DNA from: a virus
Lineage: Duplodnaviria; Heunggongvirae; Uroviricota; Caudoviricetes
Virus record (IMG/VR): IMGVR_UViG_2778261535_000015
Location: 1 to 9,800 of that record
Strand: one strand, 5' to 3'
Length of the DNA: 9,800 nucleotides
The position numbers and the translations under genes were made by a program. Shown in pieces: positions 582 through 9,800 of this stretch. Each line of letters starts with the position of its first letter. Position 1 is the first letter of the stretch. The notes under the pieces were generated by a model that did not search any database, was not told where the DNA came from, and saw only the letters and a program-made list of their open reading frames with translations.

Positions 582-1589
582 CTACCCTACTGTGGACACA
601 GTGTGGACACTCATGGAGTCAACGCCACCACGTAGCGGATTGAGTGAAACAGCATCCTGAAGATACTCCGGGGCAAAGTGCGCATAGACCATTGTCTGCT
701 CTATGCGTGAATGTCCCAGTATTCTCTGCAGGGTGATGATACTCCCGCCGTTAATCATAAAGTGGGTAGCAAAACTGTGACGCAATGCGTGAGTTGCTTG
801 CCCGTCCGGTAGATCTGGTTTTACATCTTTCATTGTTCGCCTGAACTTCGGATATGAGGCATCAGGGAACAGATAACCTTTACCCGCAATCATTACAGCA
901 ACTTCCTCAGAGATAGGGACTGTGCGCGGTTTGTTCGTCTTTGTTTTAACGAACGTCACCCGATTCTGTATTACGTTCTCAGCTTTCAGTTTCGCGGCTT
1001 CACCCCATCGAGCGCCGGTACTTAAACAGAGGATCGCGATTTTCTTGTTGTCCCCGTCAAGATTGGCAAGTAACAATGTTATTTCTTCCTGCGTCAGATA
1101 GCCTGTTTCTGGTTTCTGCTCCTTGAGCTTTTTCATCCCTCTGAAAGGGTGTTCGCCAAAAAACAGTTCCGCATCAATTAGCGCAGTAAACATACCACTC
1201 AGGCAGGTAAGGTCGCGGTTAATACTGGCCGGTTTTATGCCTTGCCCTCTGCGAGTCATGCTGTACTGGCTAATAAGCGCTTTGGTTATCTGGAACGCGC
1301 AAGGGTCATCAGTGATCCGGGTAAAGATTTCAATCTTACCCAAATTGGATTTTCCGTGTTCTTCATGCTTGCCTTTCAGATCCCACCAGACTTTTGTTAA
1401 TTCAGACAGATGCCGCTTATCTGTCGGTTTAGCTAGCCATTCTTTATCGTGATGGTTGTATTGAGTGTGTTTCTCAAAAGCTACAGCCTCACTTTTCTTG
1501 TCAAATTTCCTGCGGATGCGCTTTCCGTTGCGCCCTGCAGGTCTGATATCCACTTCATAACGACCATCATCGAGTTTCTTAATTGTCAT
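582..1589 (-). CDS. int: Tyrosine recombinase / phage integrase, P2 Int family
   Basis: 335-aa ORF whose N-terminus MTIKKLDDGRYEVDIRPAGRNGKRIRRKFDKKSEAVAFEKHTQYNHH matches P2 Int as I recall it. C-terminal catalytic signatures are present: LSTGARWGEA (Arg), HALRHSFATHF (H-x-x-R) and VYAHF (nucleophilic Tyr). Same strand as and downstream of the repressor, as in the P2 Pc operon. Confidence 0.93.
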   Translation of the reverse strand: MTIKKLDDGRYEVDIRPAGRNGKRIRRKFDKKSEAVAFEKHTQYNHHDKEWLAKPTDKRHLSELTKVWWDLKGKHEEHGKSNLGKIEIFTRITDDPCAFQITKALISQYSMTRRGQGIKPASINRDLTCLSGMFTALIDAELFFGEHPFRGMKKLKEQKPETGYLTQEEITLLLANLDGDNKKIAILCLSTGARWGEAAKLKAENVIQNRVTFVKTKTNKPRTVPISEEVAVMIAGKGYLFPDASYPKFRRTMKDVKPDLPDGQATHALRHSFATHFMINGGSIITLQRILGHSRIEQTMVYAHFAPEYLQDAVSLNPLRGGVDSMSVHTVSTVG

Positions 1590-1734: not shown

Positions 1735-2034
1735 TTAACCAATCTTTTGGTCTGAGTGCTGCGATGTTGTTACATCTTGCTCAAAGTGTGCGAGGGCCGG
1801 TGCTATCTGACCGGCTTCGGGAGCAACCTGATCGGTCATAAACCACAACGTGTATTTGCTGAACTGGGGCATTTGCAAAATCCTCATCATTACGTCCGTG
1901 GGCGGTGTAGAACGACCACTTTCGTAATAACTTAAAGTGCCATAGGGAATGCCTGTTAAATCAGCAAGTTGCTGTCTGCTGAGATACTCAGACTTTCTGA
2001 TGAGTACAATTTTCTCGTTTAAGGCGTTTGACAT
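1735..2034 (-). CDS. C: Immunity repressor, P2 C-like (99 aa)
   Basis: 99 aa, the same length as P2 C. Helix-turn-helix-like segment SRQQLADLTGIPYGTLSYYESG near the N-terminus. Lies between int and cox, divergent from cox. Confidence 0.85.
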   Translation of the reverse strand: MSNALNEKIVLIRKSEYLSRQQLADLTGIPYGTLSYYESGRSTPPTDVMMRILQMPQFSKYTLWFMTDQVAPEAGQIAPALAHFEQDVTTSQHSDQKIG

Positions 2035-2800: not shown

Positions 2801-3280
2801 TTATTTGAACCATTTACTAGATGGGTGAGTGTCACCAATGTGGTGCGTTTCCTCGAAAGATTTTGAGAAGTGCATGCCGGGGATAGCGACATCGGCTTGA
2901 TCCAGAATAGGAGCGTCGATAATGGCATTAAGGAAAAACTGGGCATTTTGCTTTGCTAATTCTAATGAGTCAAAGCCATTTCCTGAACTTTCGGTAACTT
3001 TAGACAGTTGTCCATTTTTTGAGATAAATAATTCCCAGCCCCATAGCGATTCATGCTGTTTTAAAGAAATAACTACAGATGGACAGTTTTCTGTATCGCC
3101 AGAATTAATATCGTCACCAGCCTTAATAAAGATTGGCGATTCCATAAGGCCTACAAAGTTCTCAAGGTCATCAATGGCTTTAGGTCTTGTTTCAAATAGT
3201 GGACTTTCAAAGAGGGGGGCACCATCGGAAAGCACCCAGTGTGATCCGTGGTCTTTTTTAAAAAATACATTGAATTTCAT
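2801..3280 (-). CDS. Hypothetical protein (159 aa), low-GC accessory gene opposing the early operon
   Basis: The minus-strand ORF 2801-3328 has an internal ATG at 3278-3280 preceded by AAGGAG at 5-nt spacing (reverse complement of 3287-3292), giving MKFNVFFKKDHGSHW.... Composition is protein-like. The overlapping plus-strand ORF 2922-3344 is low-complexity and rejected. Confidence 0.6.
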   Translation of the reverse strand: MKFNVFFKKDHGSHWVLSDGAPLFESPLFETRPKAIDDLENFVGLMESPIFIKAGDDINSGDTENCPSVVISLKQHESLWGWELFISKNGQLSKVTESSGNGFDSLELAKQNAQFFLNAIIDAPILDQADVAIPGMHFSKSFEETHHIGDTHPSSKWFK

Positions 3281-3305
3281 TACAACTCCTTCTGTGTTGG
3301 TGATT

Positions 3306-3345
3306 GTTATGCCTGATTCACCGCTCAAAGTTACACAGGCATAGC
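3306..3345. promoter_or_regulatory. Inverted repeat in the divergent intergenic region; candidate operator or promoter element
   Basis: TATGCCTG (3308-3315) and CAGGCATA (3336-3343) with a 20-nt spacer, extendable to 9 of 10 bp. Lies between the minus-strand gene start (3280) and the next plus-strand start (3419). Confidence 0.25.
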
Positions 3346-4115: not shown

Positions 4116-5081
4116 ATGATTCGATCTCTCGTTAAATGGCCCGGTGGTAAAGGCCGCGTTATGCCTGATTTGCTGCCGATTCTGCCGAAAGCCGATTGCC
4201 TGGTGGAACCGTTTGTCGGCGGTGCTTCTGTTTTCCTCAATACTGAATATCGCCGTTATATCCTGGGTGATATCAACCCAGATTTAATTAACCTGTATCG
4301 CCAGATAACCCGCTGGCCTGATGCGGTGATCGACGCTGCTCGCCCACTGTTTAAAGTGTACGGCGATAAAGACGGCTATAAGTGGATCCGCGATGATTTC
4401 AACGCCCGCGCACGTGACCTACTGTCATTGCGCAGTGTGTTTGAAGATGGGCCGGACGCGGGCAAGATTCTTCGTGCAGCACAATTTCTTTACCTGAACC
4501 GTCACGGATATAACGGCGTAGTACGCTACAACCAACAGGGTGGATATAACGTTCCCTTTGGGCGTCACAAAACCCCGCCTTACTTCCCGGAAGAACAGAT
4601 CCGTTTATTCTCTGAAAAAGCTAACGACACGAAAGCCATTTTCGTGTGCTGCGATTTCCAGAGCACGTTAAAAATCATGATTGGTAGTGACGCGGTTATC
4701 TACTGCGATCCGCCATACCTGCCAACAAGCGAAACAGCTAATTTCACCCAATATCACACAGCCCCGTTTGGCATTAAAGAACATCGCCAGTTAGCTGCCG
4801 CCCTGCTGGATATTAACCGCCTTACTGGTTCGCCGGTGATCCTGTCCAATAGCGACACCCCAGCCACCCGCGAGATTTATCGCTCTTTCAACTTCCAGGA
4901 AATTATCGTTAACCGTTCTGTCAGCGCGAACGCCATTACCAGAGGGGCCGCCAGTGAAGTGATCGGCGTCCTCAAAGTCTGCGCGACTTGTCGCCGTGCC
5001 GGTGGTGGGTGCTGCCCTGACTGCGGCCCTTGTGCTGGTTATTCCGTGTGGGGTGGAACGGCTGACGAGGTGCTCTTCTGA
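4116..5081 (+). CDS. dam: DNA adenine (N6) methyltransferase, Dam family, with a Cys-rich C-terminal extension
   Basis: N-terminus LVKWPGGKGRVMPDLLPILPKADCLVEPFVGGASVFLN parallels the E. coli Dam AdoMet-binding region. The catalytic DPPY motif is in IYCDPPYLPTSETANFTQYHT. GGAGA ribosome-binding site 8 nt upstream. An extra tail of about 35 aa, CATCRRAGGGCCPDCGPCAG, follows the Dam-like core. Confidence 0.9.
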   Translation: MIRSLVKWPGGKGRVMPDLLPILPKADCLVEPFVGGASVFLNTEYRRYILGDINPDLINLYRQITRWPDAVIDAARPLFKVYGDKDGYKWIRDDFNARARDLLSLRSVFEDGPDAGKILRAAQFLYLNRHGYNGVVRYNQQGGYNVPFGRHKTPPYFPEEQIRLFSEKANDTKAIFVCCDFQSTLKIMIGSDAVIYCDPPYLPTSETANFTQYHTAPFGIKEHRQLAAALLDINRLTGSPVILSNSDTPATREIYRSFNFQEIIVNRSVSANAITRGAASEVIGVLKVCATCRRAGGGCCPDCGPCAGYSVWGGTADEVLF

Positions 5082-5302
5082 TGGCTAGCAAAATTAATAA
5101 CGGTCTTTCGGAATACCAGCGCGGCGCACTGGCTGCGCTTAACGAAGCCAAAACACTGGCCCTTGCACACGCAACGTTGGCGGGTGTTCTCGCCGGAAGT
5201 GAAGCCGCAAACACGCTGTTGATTTCTTTCAATGTGTTACTCGACCCGCTAATCGAAAAGCATTCCCAGCGGGAGGGTGATAGCGGGGCATCCAATGTCT
5301 GA
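5081..5302 (+). CDS. Hypothetical small Ala-rich protein (73 aa), translationally coupled to dam and A
   Basis: Its ATG overlaps the dam stop (TGATG at 5079-5083) and its stop overlaps the ATG of the replication gene (ATGTCTGA at 5295-5302). No motif recognised. Confidence 0.4.
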   Translation: MASKINNGLSEYQRGALAALNEAKTLALAHATLAGVLAGSEAANTLLISFNVLLDPLIEKHSQREGDSGASNV

Positions 5303-7910
5303 CACCGCTTTTGCATGGCCCTGGAACGCGCCGCGCCCAGCTATTGGCCTGTACACCTACGAACCGAAAAAAATCGCCCCGCTTGCAGGGGCGGTGGTAC
5401 ATCATCCAGCCGTAAAAAAACACATCGATCACATCTTCAAACGCGCCGGTTACAACCCCGACGAGGTTCGGGACCGTAACGCGCTTATCCAGGCGCTGGA
5501 CAGGTACGAACCGTGCGGCCTGCTACTGGCCGCCCATCAAAATATAATCCGGCAGGAAATGGAAGCCGCTAAAGCTACGACGGCAGCCTGGGTCAATACG
5601 CCGGAAGGTGTCGAAGCGCGTTTATTATCAGAGCCGTTCTTCATTCGTGAAGTCTGGCGTAAAAAAATTGAGTGGTTACGGGTCAACCGTGAAACCAGAC
5701 ACACCAATGATTTTCTTATGGGGACCGTGAAAAAATCATTGCTGCGTCTTGATGTTGTACGCACAAGGCAAGGTGTTTCGCCTGATATCACCGGCGAACT
5801 GGCTGCGTACTGGTTCGGGCGCTGGCAACGTCTGGCTGATTTCACAAAGCGGGAAGCACTGAGCGCCGCTAATGAGATCGCCAGCCGCATGGCTGAAATG
5901 CTGGGGACGGAATGCGAAGCCCTGGGACGGAATGTTTCAGACATGAACGTCGAAGAATTGGACTGGCTTTATTGCCACCTGGGCCGCGAAATGCTGGCGC
6001 TTCGCATTGTACCGCCTGCATGGTATGCGCCGTGGGAACGCGAGCGCATATGCACGGCCATTTTGCGTATGGCTTCGCCTGACTGGTGGGGGCGTAAAAT
6101 CTGGCGCTTGCGTTGTGACTGGCGCGAGAACCAGCTGCGTGCTGTTGGCGCGGTAAATAAAAAAGCGCACGCCTACGTTAGCGTTTCCAGCCTGATCGAG
6201 TGGCAGGAACAGCGCCGTAAAAACCGGGATTTTTTCAAAAGTCATGAACTGGTAGACGAAGACGGCAACGTTTCGTCGCTTGAGGAAATGATTAATAAAT
6301 CCACGTCTAACCCGGCTATTCGTCGCCATGAGCTTATGGCCCGAATGGCTGGGGTTGAGCTTGTCGCCCAAAGTCGCGGCGATGTTGGCATCTTCCTGAC
6401 CATCACTTGCCCGTCGAAATATCACAGTAATATTGCGTCCGGCCACCATAACGCCAAATGGAATCATTCCACCGTCGCCCAGGCGCAGCGCTATTTATGC
6501 CGAGTATGGAACCGGGCAACCGCCAAACTGAAACGCGAAGATTTGCGCCCTTACGGCTTCCGCGTCGCTGAGCCGCATCATGATGGGACACCACACTGGC
6601 ACGCATTGCTATTTATGCCACAAGAGCAAGTTAAAGCCACGGTTGCGATCCTTCGCGCCTACTTCATTGCGGAAGACCGCGACGAGCTGGGCCGCAATAC
6701 CGGTGCTCGTTTCAAGTCAAAAAAAATGGACCCACGGAAAGGGTCAGCAACGGCGTATATCGCGAAATACATTTCGAAGAATATCGACGGCCACGCGCTG
6801 GCCGGTGAACTGGACGACGAAAGCGGCAAGCCGCTGAATGAAACAGCCAAATATGCAATGGCCTGGGCGTCACTTCACCGCATCCGCCAGTTTCAGCCCA
6901 TCGGACAGCCGCCCATATCGGTTTACCGCGAGCTGCGCAAACTGAGCAATCAGATCACGACCCGCCAGAAAATTGACAATACCTTCAAGCGCGGTGCGCC
7001 GTTGCTTGTGGATCCTGCAATGGATGCGGTTTGCGCCGCTGCCGATGTCGGGTGCTTTGCTACCTACATCATCCGCCAGGGTGGTGTTTTGATCCCGCGT
7101 GAAAACTATGTCGTCCGTCTGGCCTATCAGCCAGCTGATGAAATGAATGCTTATTGTGAGATCCCCGAAAAGGTTTTCGGGGTCTGGTCGCCGCGTCTGG
7201 GTGATGCCTCCCGTATTTGCACCCGTCTGGTTAAGTGGAAAATCCGCGCCAAATCCAAAGCTACCACCGAGGCCAAAAATGGCCCCGGTTTGGGGGTTGA
7301 CCTTTTGCCGTCGCCAACCGGCGACGCTTGGAGTTCTGTCAATAACTCTACGGAAGCCGAAAAAATCACCAATTTTTCGCCTGATGTGGAGGATATGACA
7401 GAAGAGTCAGAAGAAGAAATCGTCGATTTTGAAAATTTGGACCAGTCAACGCGGCGCAAATTGATGCGGCGACTACGTGAAACACCATTCAAAAGGCAGA
7501 AAAGCGGATCGCCTTACGAGCTAGGAAGCGAATTAGATGCCGCCTGGCGTTCTGCCGTGGAAAAAACCGAGGCCAGATCGGCGGCTGAAAAAGCCAAGCG
7601 GGCAGTTCTTGCCCCTGCGGTTGCCAGTCTGCTGGCTGATGCGGCGTTGTGTTTGGTTGAGATTTCAGAGATTCAGGCCGTTTCGCTGTTAATGGGGAGC
7701 CGTCTGGCTATTGGCGGAAAAGTTTATCAGGCCAGTGCTGGCGGACAGTTGATAACGCGTCAATTGCCTGATGAGTCACGGACGGTGAAAAAATTATGGG
7801 AACGTTTACGGGATAACCACGGCATTGATGCCACGCGCCTGCGGTTTGATCCGGTCGGGGAGTATCAAAAAATGCTGGCGGATGCGGAAGATTACCACCA
7901 AAAAGAATGA
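5295..7910 (+). CDS. A: Rolling-circle replication initiation endonuclease, P2 gpA-like (HUH superfamily)
   Basis: HUH metal-binding motif EPHHDGTPHWHALLF (about 6580-6612). Paired catalytic tyrosines in ATAYIAKYISKN (Tyr codons at 6756-6758 and 6768-6770), resembling the phiX174/P2 gpA active site. The ORF track starts at the GTG at 5277; the ATG at 5295 is preferred because it overlaps the upstream stop. Position after the early genes matches P2 gene A. Confidence 0.9.
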   Translation: MSDTAFAWPWNAPRPAIGLYTYEPKKIAPLAGAVVHHPAVKKHIDHIFKRAGYNPDEVRDRNALIQALDRYEPCGLLLAAHQNIIRQEMEAAKATTAAWVNTPEGVEARLLSEPFFIREVWRKKIEWLRVNRETRHTNDFLMGTVKKSLLRLDVVRTRQGVSPDITGELAAYWFGRWQRLADFTKREALSAANEIASRMAEMLGTECEALGRNVSDMNVEELDWLYCHLGREMLALRIVPPAWYAPWERERICTAILRMASPDWWGRKIWRLRCDWRENQLRAVGAVNKKAHAYVSVSSLIEWQEQRRKNRDFFKSHELVDEDGNVSSLEEMINKSTSNPAIRRHELMARMAGVELVAQSRGDVGIFLTITCPSKYHSNIASGHHNAKWNHSTVAQAQRYLCRVWNRATAKLKREDLRPYGFRVAEPHHDGTPHWHALLFMPQEQVKATVAILRAYFIAEDRDELGRNTGARFKSKKMDPRKGSATAYIAKYISKNIDGHALAGELDDESGKPLNETAKYAMAWASLHRIRQFQPIGQPPISVYRELRKLSNQITTRQKIDNTFKRGAPLLVDPAMDAVCAAADVGCFATYIIRQGGVLIPRENYVVRLAYQPADEMNAYCEIPEKVFGVWSPRLGDASRICTRLVKWKIRAKSKATTEAKNGPGLGVDLLPSPTGDAWSSVNNSTEAEKITNFSPDVEDMTEESEEEIVDFENLDQSTRRKLMRRLRETPFKRQKSGSPYELGSELDAAWRSAVEKTEARSAAEKAKRAVLAPAVASLLADAALCLVEISEIQAVSLLMGSRLAIGGKVYQASAGGQLITRQLPDESRTVKKLWERLRDNHGIDATRLRFDPVGEYQKMLADAEDYHQKE

Positions 7911-7999: not shown

Positions 8000-8249
8000 T
8001 GCATGTAACATTTTTCTACGAAGCGCGATAAATTAATAATTCTAAAATGAGTCTGTCAGGTTACTCAACTAAGAGTTCTGCTAACTTATCCGCATTTCTG
8101 TCATTCTTAAGGGTAGAAGACCTATCAAAAAATTGAATTAGTGTATATCTCACATCACCACACTGTGGCTGTAGATAAATGTTACTATTTTGTATATCGT
8201 AGTTGTCACTTATTCAAAATGGTTACACCTAAAAATTTCAAGGTAGAAA
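8000..8249 (+). promoter_or_regulatory. AT-rich leader / putative promoter region for the cargo gene
   Basis: Abrupt composition shift near 8000. Multiple TTGnnn and TAtAnT-like hexamers, and a weak AAGGTAG ribosome-binding site before the ATG at 8250. No single -35/-10 pair could be assigned confidently. Confidence 0.3.
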
Positions 8250-9800
8250 ATGGACGAGCATATTTCTGAATTCCTTTTTAATAATTACCGTGAAGACAAT
8301 CATGCAATGAAACTATTAGCTTGGTTGGTTATTGATAAGAATAATACAGCGAATCGGATTACGGCTCGCCTCAAGCATGCAGTTGAAAATCAAAAAGTAA
8401 TAACAAAGCCTCGTTTTATTCGCAGAGTTGATAAGTATCATAAATTTTATAATTTGAACCGGCCTCAACCGCTAAATGTATTAAACTCAAGTAAAAGAAT
8501 TCACTCATTACAGGTTTGTGATTTTCGAGGTTTTGGGCGTCTCACGGATGAAGATTTAGGTGTGAAATTTAAATTTAATAAGTTAAATAATATTTTCTTT
8601 GCTCCCAATGGAGGTGGAAAAAGTAGTTTGTGTGAGGTTCTTGAATATCAAACGACAGGTGATATTAAAGAGGCCGGTAGAAGAAAAACTTCAATAAAAA
8701 ATTATATACGAAGAAATGGGAAACATATTATAAGCTTATTAGATCATACTGGTAAGCCTATTCAAGCAAATCCAGATTATAAGTATAATTTTATAGATAG
8801 AAACAGACTGCAAGAATTTTCATTGTTAGGGTCTAATGATACAAAATTTGGTGAGAGGGATGTCCTTGCGGCTCTAGTTGGATTGGAAAATTTTGATGAT
8901 TTTTTATCAATGCTAGTTGCGCCAAGAAGTTTTAATGCCCTTAGTTTTATTAAAAATGAGCATGCGAATAAACTGGAATCTCTTGAGTCTCAGCTTGAAA
9001 GACTAAGGATAAGCTCTTCTGAAAATAACGCTGAACTAAGATCTATTAAATCAGAAATTATAAAATCTCTTGGCTGTGACTTTAAAAATCTTAGCGAGAG
9101 ATACATTGATAATGTTGTTAGAATAAAGTTGCCTCATATTAAAAAATATCATTTGAAATTGAATGAAAAAAAAGAACAGTTAAAAAAAGGGATTCCTTCA
9201 GTAGAGATTCCTTTAGAACATTCTCGCAGGATTTTGGCTATATTATGTAATTTATTGCAGAAAAAGAAAAGAATAGAGACAAAACTCAATGAGATTGTTT
9301 ATGATGCTAATAGCATTGCATTATTTAAATTGTCCAAGAAAATATTGACCGAACAGAAGTATAGTGCTTGTCCTCTTTGTAATACATCTTTAGCCGAAGT
9401 GAATAAAGATCCATTAGTTAACGCTATAGATATACTAAACTCTTATGTGCATGTTACAAACTTACAAACATGTCTCAATGAAACTTTAGCACTTATTCAG
9501 AAGTTTACTACTATAGTGTCAGATGCTTTGAGAGCATTTCTTATTTCACCTGTTAATGTAAATGTTGATTGTGATTTTAAAGCGCTGGCAGATATATCAA
9601 ATAATATAAGTGTAAGTAATGACGATGTAATTCTAGGTTATATGCTGTCTTTAGATGATATTTTAAAGTCATGTGGTACATTAGATTTGTATAATGAGAA
9701 AGCTAAACAACATAATGTAATAATAAAAAAAACGGAGAATACATTAAAAAAAATAATTTCAAGAATCAACATCTCTCAAGTTTCAGTATATTATATTTAA
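8250..9800 (+). CDS. Hotspot cargo protein: P-loop (ABC/SMC/Rad50-like) ATPase, 516 aa; candidate anti-phage defence gene
   Basis: Line counts give 19/60 and 13/60 G+C within this gene against 37/60 inside gene A. Walker A FFAPNGGGKSSLCEVLEY (about 8601-8650) is preceded by the beta-strand pattern IHSLQVCDFRGFG typical of RecF/SbcC/SMC heads. A coiled-coil-like region follows (LESLESQLERLRISSSENNAELRSIKSEI). CPLC motif at 9369-9380. Stop TAA at 9798-9800. Sits directly downstream of gene A. Confidence 0.75.
   Translation: MDEHISEFLFNNYREDNHAMKLLAWLVIDKNNTANRITARLKHAVENQKVITKPRFIRRVDKYHKFYNLNRPQPLNVLNSSKRIHSLQVCDFRGFGRLTDEDLGVKFKFNKLNNIFFAPNGGGKSSLCEVLEYQTTGDIKEAGRRKTSIKNYIRRNGKHIISLLDHTGKPIQANPDYKYNFIDRNRLQEFSLLGSNDTKFGERDVLAALVGLENFDDFLSMLVAPRSFNALSFIKNEHANKLESLESQLERLRISSSENNAELRSIKSEIIKSLGCDFKNLSERYIDNVVRIKLPHIKKYHLKLNEKKEQLKKGIPSVEIPLEHSRRILAILCNLLQKKKRIETKLNEIVYDANSIALFKLSKKILTEQKYSACPLCNTSLAEVNKDPLVNAIDILNSYVHVTNLQTCLNETLALIQKFTTIVSDALRAFLISPVNVNVDCDFKALADISNNISVSNDDVILGYMLSLDDILKSCGTLDLYNEKAKQHNVIIKKTENTLKKIISRINISQVSVYYI

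What the first reader, a model, noticed from the sequence alone, without database searches (positions are those of the whole stretch)
8250..9800. 516-aa ATPase with an SMC/Rad50-like N-terminal head, a CPLC hook-like motif, and no recognisable C-terminal half
The protein has an N-terminal extension of about 85 aa, then a canonical ABC-head start (beta-strand LQVCDFRGFG followed by Walker A NGGGKSS), then heptad-like coiled-coil sequence, with CPLC at residues 374-377. The motif resembles the CxxC zinc hook of Rad50/SbcC; I recall E. coli SbcC also using CPLC. Only about 140 residues follow it, and I could not find an LSGGQ-like signature or a clear hhhhDE Walker B (YMLSLDD is at best a weak candidate). 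The protein is either a divergent ATPase, or the ABC head is completed by a partner beyond the window, or it is a hook-containing nucleotide-binding protein of a kind I cannot place. Several known defence ATPases (Old, Gabija GajA, Septu PtuA, PARIS AriA, Lamassu LmuB, RloC) are ABC-like, but none obviously matches this architecture.
Basis: partly seen in the sequence, partly recalled or inferred. Interest (0 to 1): 0.8.

Follow-up and report, generated by a model that had tools for sequence, protein, structure and literature searches.

The report
Half-read Rad50-like phage-defence gene
The odd "half an ATPase" is the first 55% of a normal 941-residue gene, cut short by sequencing errors at the end of an assembly contig; the complete protein is an uncharacterised Rad50-like ATPase with a zinc hook and a probable RNA-cutting tail, carried by a P2-like prophage where such phages keep anti-phage genes.

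Summary
The puzzle of the missing C-terminal half is an artefact. The window comes from an E. coli draft contig that ends 54 bp after the stop codon. Residues 1-493 are 100% identical to a 941-aa E. coli/Citrobacter protein. The last 124 nt of the contig carry 25 substitutions and no indel against the intact allele. One of them turns Glu517 (GAA) into the TAA at 9798.

The gene sits alone between P2 gpA and portal gpQ, the old/tin defence hotspot. Its architecture mirrors the anticodon nuclease RloC, but it is a separate family: it does not match Pfam AAA_13 and has no family-specific model in PADLOC, NCBIfam or PHROGs. The most likely role is a single-gene abortive-infection sensor-RNase. This is untested.

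The parts
5277..7910 (+). P2-type replication endonuclease gpA, the left border of the gpA-gpQ cargo hotspot
   Evidence: Pfam Phage_GPA on the called gene. It is 94% identical in DNA to Salmonella P2-like phages SI7/SW5. The hotspot is defined in PMC9122126.
7911..8249 (.). Junction between phage backbone and cargo, and leader of the gene. GC falls from about 53% to about 30% near 8000.
   Evidence: Composition profile. No convincing + strand sigma-70 promoter and no terminator were found.
8250..9797 (+). 5' 55% (codons 1-516) of a 941-codon gene for a Rad50/SbcC-like CxxC ABC ATPase with a C-terminal HEPN-like domain
   Evidence: The family profile of 938 positions aligns to positions 1-506 only, at 401 bits. 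Residues 1-493 are identical to the 941-aa P0209.
8250..8504 (+). N-terminal extension (residues 1-85), conserved in the long subfamily, function unknown
   Evidence: Alignments A1 and A4; conserved M1, L5 and F8. No Pfam hit.
8508..8627 (+). ABC head N-lobe start: first beta strand LQVCDFRGFG (87-96) and Walker A APNGGGKSS (118-126, K124)
   Evidence: F-R-G-F and P-N-G-x-G-K-S are invariant or nearly invariant in the family.
8790..8822 (+). FIDRNRLQEFS (181-191), the most conserved family motif, at the N-lobe/coiled-coil junction
   Evidence: F, N, R and F are invariant. It was used as the scan pattern.
9369..9380 (+). [quoted passage not shown]
   Evidence: C-P-x-C is invariant in 22 diverse members. 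In the AF2 model of homologue P0014 it lies in the turn between the ascending (157-278) and descending (300-503) helices.
9731..9800 (+). Start of the degenerate contig tail. There are 17 substitutions against the intact allele inside the window (25 to the contig end), including G>T at 9798 that turns Glu517 GAA into the TAA 'stop'.
   Evidence: Gap-free DNA alignment with IMG/VR locus L060. tblastn of P0209 gives one in-frame HSP, residues 1-530, running to the contig end.

Best explanation
The window ORF is not a 516-aa protein. It is the first 55% of a 941-codon gene whose apparent stop lies in an error-laden contig end (shown).

The intact protein has these parts (shown by alignment and AF2 models of homologues):
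- an 85-aa N-terminal extension;
- the N-lobe of a Rad50/SbcC-type ABC head with Walker A (K124);
- an ascending coiled coil;
- a CPLC zinc hook (C374/C377);
- a descending coiled coil;
- the C-lobe with the signature LSEGH (642-646), Walker B IVFDD (667-671), the D-loop NAID and the H-loop TTHD (H704);
- a roughly 130-aa all-helical HEPN-like domain with invariant R759, R766-x3-E770 and W831-x3-N835-x3-H839;
- a terminal helical hairpin.

It is the only cargo gene between gpA and portal gpQ of P2-like prophages, the position where P2 carries old and tin (shown).

Inferred mechanism, by analogy with RloC, Lamassu and Rad50. Two protomers join through the zinc hook and through ATP-engaged heads. 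Binding of phage DNA (ends or replication intermediates) drives an ATP-dependent change in the head. That change brings the two C-terminal HEPN-like domains into an active arrangement. They then cut RNA, possibly tRNA, which stops translation and aborts the infection of a superinfecting phage.
For: Truncation is an artefact:
- The contig ends 54 bp after the stop.
- The 90% identity cluster holds 941-aa proteins from E. coli and C. freundii on at least 48 contigs, plus many fragments labelled 'partial'.
- Identity to P0209 is 100% over residues 1-493, then 9 of the last 23 residues differ.
- The tail has 25 substitutions and no indel in its last 124 nt, and continues in frame with the intact allele.
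- The tail is not an IS end.

Architecture:
- 48 of 50 genome loci hold one ORF of 879-967 aa.
- The motifs are invariant across the family.
- The AF2 model of P0014 has pLDDT 80.9.
- Foldseek matches it to Rad50 (E 4.7e-10), SMC heads and Lamassu LmuB 9hqu_A (E 4.5e-7).

HEPN-like domain:
- The invariant R-x3-E ... H pattern parallels the RloC triad R692/E696/H737.

Defence context:
- The order gpA-gene-Q-P is found in L007/L059, L060, L061 and L048.
- The hotspot is described in PMC9122126.
- Other members sit in a type I RM operon, on an ICE next to a Cap4 nuclease, beside integrases, and beside a DUF4365-TPR-PIN protein.
- The gene has about 30% GC against about 53% for the phage backbone.
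Against: - The deposited sequence does contain the stop, and NCBI annotates a 516-aa protein (WP_097439762.1). Without the reads, a real local hypermutation cannot be formally excluded.
- The loop carrying N-x3-H has pLDDT below 50.
- The canonical HEPN motif Rx4-6H is absent; the arginine before the histidine is not conserved.
- No Pfam HEPN model matches.
- There are no phage-challenge data for this family, and no paper was found that describes it.
- The RNA target is a guess. The Val_tRNA-synt_C hits on the terminal hairpin are mostly below threshold.
Confidence: 0.8

Rival explanations
1. The gene really is truncated in this strain. It would be a decaying pseudogene whose 3' part has accumulated mutations, including nonsense codons, perhaps because the intact protein is toxic.
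For: The stop is in the deposited sequence. Split or truncated copies of relatives do occur in finished genomes: P0011 (400 aa) plus P0028 (536 aa) in Pseudoduganella sp. R-34, P0004 (400 aa) in Aeromonas, P0008 (471 aa), and 158 + 784 aa in L003.
Against: There are no differences over 493 codons, then 25 substitutions within the last 124 nt before a contig end. That is the signature of a bad assembly tip, not of gradual decay. The independent contig L060 also degrades in its first 45 nt, in the same region of the gene. Many cluster members are labelled 'partial', which suggests that this AT-rich gene often breaks assemblies.
Confidence: 0.1
2. The ABC head is split. The 516-aa protein would be completed by a separately encoded C-terminal half, or would work with a downstream nuclease effector.
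For: The window ends at the stop codon, so a downstream partner could not be seen. Some relatives are annotated as two ORFs.
Against: 48 of 50 relatives, and the alleles at least 90% identical, are single ORFs. The contig tail continues in the same frame as the intact gene. No neighbouring gene is conserved. In L060, L007 and L061 the next gene is the phage portal.
Confidence: 0.02
3. It is the LmuB subunit of a Lamassu system, or a DNA-repair or DNA-modification SMC-like protein such as SbcC or DndD, rather than a self-contained ATPase-RNase.
For: The best PADLOC hits are LmuB models: E 3e-08 for the window, and down to 5e-28 over the whole profile for the homologue P0024. There are structural matches to LmuB and Rad50. 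Some database members are labelled DndD.
Against: No LmuA/LmuC, SbcD or DndE-type neighbour is conserved. The gene is a single-gene cargo in P2 hotspots. An extra conserved C-terminal domain is fused where those systems use separate effectors.
Confidence: 0.06

Closest known systems
RloC (wobble-nucleotide-excising anticodon nuclease; Pfam AAA_13/PF13166)
   Same: One polypeptide. The ABC ATPase head is interrupted by a coiled coil with a CxxC zinc hook. A C-terminal helical nuclease-type domain carries an R-x3-E ... H constellation (RloC R692/E696/H737). Some members are linked to type I RM or to prophages.
   Different: No sequence relationship beyond Walker A. AAA_13 scores E 0.078 on a homologue, against 2e-111 for the true AAA_13 protein in the APEC O1 P2 hotspot. 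This family also has an extra 85-aa N-terminal extension and a terminal hairpin, a longer E-to-H spacing (69 against 41 residues), and a total length of about 940 aa. Its activity is untested.
Lamassu LmuB (Rad50-like CxxC SMC sensor of DNA ends)
   Same: Best HMM and good structural similarity for the ATPase and coiled-coil part. A defence context on mobile elements.
   Different: Lamassu is a multi-gene system with a separate effector (LmuA) and LmuC. Here no partners are conserved and the putative effector domain is fused.
Rad50 / SbcC
   Same: The ABC head fold, the antiparallel coiled coil and the CxxC hook. Rad50 is the top Foldseek hit (7zr1_C, E 4.7e-10).
   Different: A much shorter coiled coil, no Mre11/SbcD partner, an added C-terminal HEPN-like domain, and carriage as prophage cargo.
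ABC-HEPN fusions of Anantharaman et al. 2013 (families APECO1_4465 and ERFG_01251; PMC3710099)
   Different: The likely APECO1_4465 protein, located by genome position and not confirmed by locus tag, is a 738-aa AAA_13 member in the same P2 hotspot of E. coli APEC O1. It is a different family.
P2 Old and PARIS AriA/AriB
   Same: ABC-ATPase sensors coupled to a nuclease, encoded at the P2/P4 cos-proximal hotspots. Recent work reports tRNA cleavage for both (abstracts).
   Different: Those use a TOPRIM nuclease and have no long coiled coil or zinc hook. There is no sequence match.

Membership tests
Rad50/SMC-class ABC ATPase | Walker A in the N-lobe | tested here: met
   APNGGGKSS at residues 118-126; invariant in the family.
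Rad50/SMC-class ABC ATPase | Signature motif, Walker B, D-loop and H-loop in a C-lobe after the coiled coil | tested here: met
   Absent from the window ORF. Present in the intact allele P0209 (LSEGH 642-646, IVFDD 667-671, H704) and invariant in the family.
Rad50/SMC-class ABC ATPase | Head fold with an antiparallel coiled-coil insert | tested here: met
   AF2 model of homologue P0014 (pLDDT 80.9). Foldseek matches Rad50 at E 4.7e-10 and also SMC heads.
CxxC (zinc-hook) SMC-like proteins | Conserved CxxC at the coiled-coil apex | tested here: met
   C-P-x-C is invariant in 22 members and lies at the helix turn in the model. Zinc binding is not testable here.
RloC / Pfam AAA_13 | Match to PF13166 above threshold | tested here: not met
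   E 0.078, covering the Walker A region only, on P0014. No hit on the Ewingella protein. The APEC O1 hotspot ATPase scores 2e-111.
RloC / Pfam AAA_13 | C-terminal anticodon-nuclease domain with an Arg-Glu-His triad | tested here: inconclusive
   R766-x3-E770 and H839 are invariant, but the spacing differs and no sequence or profile homology to an AAA_13 member was detected.
RloC / Pfam AAA_13 | tRNA anticodon-loop cleavage with wobble-nucleotide excision | not testable with these tools
   Needs biochemistry.
HEPN superfamily | All-alpha up-down helical-bundle fold | tested here: inconclusive
HEPN superfamily | Canonical Rx4-6H motif | tested here: not met
   Only W-x3-N-x3-H is invariant. The position of the arginine is Q, L or other residues. 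Conserved arginines lie on an earlier helix.
Lamassu (LmuB) | Adjacent LmuA effector and LmuC genes | tested here: not met
   No neighbour is conserved across 50 loci, and the gene is the single cargo gene in P2 hotspots.
Lamassu (LmuB) | Match to PADLOC LmuB models | tested here: inconclusive
   Weak and partial for the window (3e-08, residues 84-156). Stronger for distant homologues (5e-28).
P2 gpA-gpQ hotspot cargo | Located between the replication gene A and the portal gene Q of a P2-like prophage | tested here: met
   gpA lies immediately upstream in the window. The portal and terminase lie immediately downstream of the same gene in L060 (99% allele) and in L007, L061 and L048.
ERFG_01251 ABC-HEPN family (PMC3710099) | Sequence membership | not tested
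   The reference sequence (gi 422781011) was not obtainable with these tools.

The most novel reading that the evidence does not exclude
The intact 941-aa protein would be a previously untested single-gene abortive-infection system. A Rad50-like, zinc-hook DNA sensor is fused directly to a non-canonical HEPN RNase and to a ValRS-like tRNA-binding hairpin. On sensing phage DNA ends or replication intermediates it would cut tRNA. That would be an independent evolutionary solution to the one seen in RloC, and it would extend the pattern of an ABC sensor paired with a tRNA-cutting nuclease seen at P2/P4 hotspots (Old, PARIS).
Probability: 0.3. Interest if true: 0.6.

Novelty: new variant of a known kind. 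Interest (0 to 1): 0.35.

Why it matters
The striking feature, an SMC-like head with a hook but no second half, is not real. This is a caution that ORFs ending at draft-contig ends can mimic novel architectures. NCBI carries this 516-aa product as a RefSeq protein.

The real gene still has some value. It belongs to a rare family: about 250 clusters at 50% identity among 1.84 billion representative proteins. It has no family-specific model in Pfam, NCBIfam, PADLOC or PHROGs. It occupies the P2 old/tin defence hotspot in several bacterial lineages as a lone gene, and it combines a Rad50-like hook ATPase with a probable RNase. It would be a compact, easily cloned candidate for studying how SMC-like DNA sensing is coupled to an RNA-targeting effector, in parallel with RloC and Lamassu.

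Tried and rejected
- I first suspected a 1-nt frameshift at the stop, because the +1 frame is open to the contig end and reads NLIS against Ewingella DLIS. I rejected this once the near-identical allele showed that the original frame continues without any indel.
- An IS insertion as the cause of the contig break was rejected, because the contig tail matches nothing in E. coli genomes.
- I searched for the gene's missing 3' part in the protein database using the Ewingella C-terminal half. No close hit was found.
- Megablast against 5,426 complete E. coli genomes, tblastn against phage records and an exact-pattern scan of IMG/VR all found nothing.
- hhalign of the family profile against the APEC O1 AAA_13 protein aligned only the Walker A region.
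- A PDB sequence search with the C-terminal-domain profile gave nothing meaningful.
- Pfam scans of the C-terminal domain found no HEPN model.
- A Foldseek PDB search with the C-terminal-domain model gave no significant hit.
- The afdb50 library was unavailable.
- A conserved partner gene was sought across 50 loci and not found.

Full report
**1. What is in the window**

The window is the left end of a P2-like prophage inserted next to yegR in an Escherichia chromosome.
- The flank is 97.5% identical to E. coli ST2747.
- The gene order is integrase (582-1589, minus strand), C-type repressor (1735-2034, minus strand), cox (2151-2426), several small ORFs, a Dam-family methylase (4116-5081) and the replication endonuclease gpA (5277-7910).
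- Just after gpA the GC content drops from about 53% to about 30%.
- The ORF in question runs from 8250 to a TAA at 9798-9800.
- On its own the 516-aa product gives only a sub-threshold Pfam AAA_23 hit and weak N-terminal PADLOC hits to LmuB and PtuA.

**2. Relatives are twice as long**

- Homologues found in the large protein collection include full-length proteins of about 880-970 aa. After the CxxC these continue with a second long helical arm, VLSEGHLRxLGLS (signature), IVFDDVVNAID (Walker B and D-loop), TTHD (H-loop) and a further domain of about 230 aa.
- A scan of one genome per species returned 50 loci. tblastn and ORF analysis show one uninterrupted ORF of 879-967 aa in 48 of them, and no conserved neighbouring gene.
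- A profile built from these proteins (938 positions) aligns to the window ORF only over positions 1-506, at 401 bits.
- An exhaustive HMMER search of 1.84 billion representative proteins found 252 hits at E <= 1e-3 and 30 at E <= 1e-30. Typical lengths are 870-967 aa. The family is rare, and 516 aa is an outlier.

**3. Why the window copy looks truncated**

- The source is contig NMHT01000072.1 of the draft assembly GCA_002511955.1. The contig ends 54 bp after the TAA.
- The exact protein is RefSeq WP_097439762.1. Its 90%-identity cluster is represented by a 941-aa E. coli protein (P0209, on 12 contigs) and by 941-aa Citrobacter freundii proteins (on 33, 2 and 1 contigs). The cluster also holds many fragments labelled 'partial'.
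- Window residues 1-493 are 100% identical to P0209. Nine of the last 23 residues differ.
- An IMG/VR contig (L060) carries the DNA for residues 465-941 of this allele, at 99%.
- The alignment of L060 with the window contig has no gaps. It shows no mismatch over window 9687-9730, then 25 substitutions in the final 124 nt. These include G>T at 9798 (GAA Glu517 becomes TAA) and a second in-frame stop further on.
- tblastn of P0209 against the contig gives a single in-frame HSP covering residues 1-530, up to the last bases of the contig.
- L060 itself carries five substitutions in its first 45 nt, against both the window and P0209. Both assemblies therefore break and degrade in the same AT-rich stretch.
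- The tail is not an IS end.
- My earlier idea of a 1-nt frameshift is superseded by these results.
- I conclude, with about 90% confidence, that the stop is an assembly artefact. A real local decay of the gene remains a minor alternative.

**4. What the intact protein is**

- An AF2 model of the homologue P0014 (pLDDT 80.9) shows an N-lobe with the P-loop, an ascending helix (157-278), a short turn carrying the CxxC, a descending helix (300-503), a C-lobe (529-656), a compact helical domain (661-790) and a terminal helical hairpin.
- Foldseek matches the model to Rad50 (7zr1_C, E 4.7e-10), SMC heads, Lamassu LmuB (9hqu_A, E 4.5e-7), MukB and JetC.
- There are caveats. Generic helical hairpins score nearly as well. 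Foldseek gives no significant HEPN hit. The motif loop has low confidence. No Pfam HEPN model matches.
- Seven residues of the C-terminal domain are invariant across both subfamilies. In P0209 numbering they are R759, L762, R766, E770, W831, N835 and H839.
- The canonical HEPN Rx4-6H motif is not present. The R-x3-E ... H pattern instead recalls the catalytic triad of PrrC (R320/E324/H356) and RloC (R692/E696/H737).
- The terminal hairpin gives weak hits, mostly below threshold, to the ValRS tRNA-binding arm in 10 of 24 members. This is a hint only.

**5. Genomic setting**

- In L060 (the same allele), in Ewingella americana (L007/L059, 64% identical to the intact P0209 and 56% over the window ORF), in a metagenomic virus (L061, 64%) and in a Pseudomonas prophage (L048), the gene lies between gpA and the portal and terminase genes Q and P. 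It is the only cargo gene, or nearly so.
- This is the cos-proximal hotspot where P2 itself carries old and tin, shown to be a reservoir of anti-phage systems (PMC9122126).
- Other members sit after hsdM-hsdS of a type I RM operon (P0024), on an ICE beside a Cap4-nuclease gene (P0023), in a DGR-bearing prophage (P0014), next to integrases, or next to a DUF4365-TPR-PIN protein.
- The gene is absent from 5,426 complete E. coli genomes.

**6. Mechanism**

What is shown is the architecture and the hotspot position. The rest is inferred.
- RloC's nuclease is governed by its zinc hook and its DNA-dependent ATPase (PMC2610378, PMC3458546).
- Lamassu's Rad50-like LmuB senses DNA ends and releases a nuclease (PMC12663957).
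- By analogy, I propose a hook-linked homodimer whose ATP- and DNA-dependent head engagement activates paired C-terminal HEPN-like domains. These would cut RNA, possibly tRNA, and abort the infection.
- The window copy as deposited lacks the signature motif, Walker B, the H-loop and the effector domain, so it could not do any of this.

**7. Comparison with known families**

- The closest analogue is RloC, but membership fails. Pfam AAA_13 does not match (E 0.078 on the Walker A region only).
- The ATPase that occupies the same P2 hotspot in E. coli APEC O1 is probably the APECO1_4465 of Anantharaman et al. 2013, judged by genome position and not by locus tag. It matches AAA_13 at 2e-111 and shares nothing with this family beyond the P-loop.
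- Two unrelated ABC-hook-HEPN-type families can therefore fill the same slot.
- The ATPase part is nearest to LmuB by HMM, but no LmuA or LmuC accompanies it.
- The family may coincide with the 'ERFG_01251' ABC-plus-classical-HEPN group, mentioned only computationally in 2013. This could not be tested.
- No family-specific model exists in NCBIfam, PHROGs or PADLOC, and no paper describing the family was found.

**8. Verdict**

- The underlying gene is an uncharacterised, sequence-distinct variant of a known kind, the RloC-like Rad50-type ATPase fused to an RNase-type domain, in a well-known defence hotspot.
- Interest is modest (0.35). It would rise to about 0.6 if the full-length gene proves to be an independent DNA-sensing tRNase.

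Noticed in passing
L058:6133-8349 (E. coli APEC O1, NC_008563.1 925932-928148): A different ABC ATPase fills the same gpA-gpQ slot of another P2-like prophage. It is 738 aa, matches Pfam AAA_13 at E 2e-111, is RloC-like and has a CPFC motif. Two unrelated hook-ATPase/HEPN-type families are interchangeable cargo at this hotspot.
   Followed up: partly
homologues P0011+P0028 (Pseudoduganella sp. R-34), P0004 (Aeromonas), P0008, L003:7528-10355: Several relatives in large or complete genomes are split or truncated at different points after the hook (400, 471, 158+784 aa). These could be real inactivations, perhaps because the protein is toxic, or sequencing errors. I did not resolve which.
   Followed up: no
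90% cluster of the window protein; L060:1-45: Many E. coli and Citrobacter copies of this ~30% GC gene are 'partial' proteins at contig ends, and a second independent contig (L060) also begins with errors inside the gene. The gene seems to be a recurrent break point in short-read assemblies.
   Followed up: partly
C-terminal ~70 residues of family members (e.g. L029:10113-10850, residues 177-227): The terminal helical hairpin gives weak Pfam hits to Val_tRNA-synt_C, the ValRS tRNA-binding arm, in 10 of 24 members. The best E-value is 5e-6, and the score is usually below the gathering threshold. This could be coiled-coil noise or a hint of tRNA binding.
   Followed up: partly
window 4116-5081 (+): The prophage Dam-family methyltransferase (Pfam MethyltransfD12) ends in an unusual Cys/Gly-rich tail (CATCRRAGGGCCPDCGPCAG).
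   Followed up: no
window 2801-3328 (-): A 175-aa ORF lies on the opposite strand within the early region, in a lower-GC patch (~41%). It matches phrog_9021 (unknown function, E 1e-110). It may be a second moron.
   Followed up: partly
L012:3761-7723 (-) and 7 other Pseudomonas loci: A 1321-aa DUF4365-TPR protein with a weak PIN match sits divergently about 275 bp upstream of the family member in eight Pseudomonas genomes. It may be a neighbouring defence gene or a lineage-specific partner.
   Followed up: partly
L007:7271-8008 (+): In Ewingella a 245-aa ORF (phrog_8083, unknown function) lies between the 940-aa gene and the portal gene. It is absent from L060, so it is probably separate cargo.
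   Followed up: no
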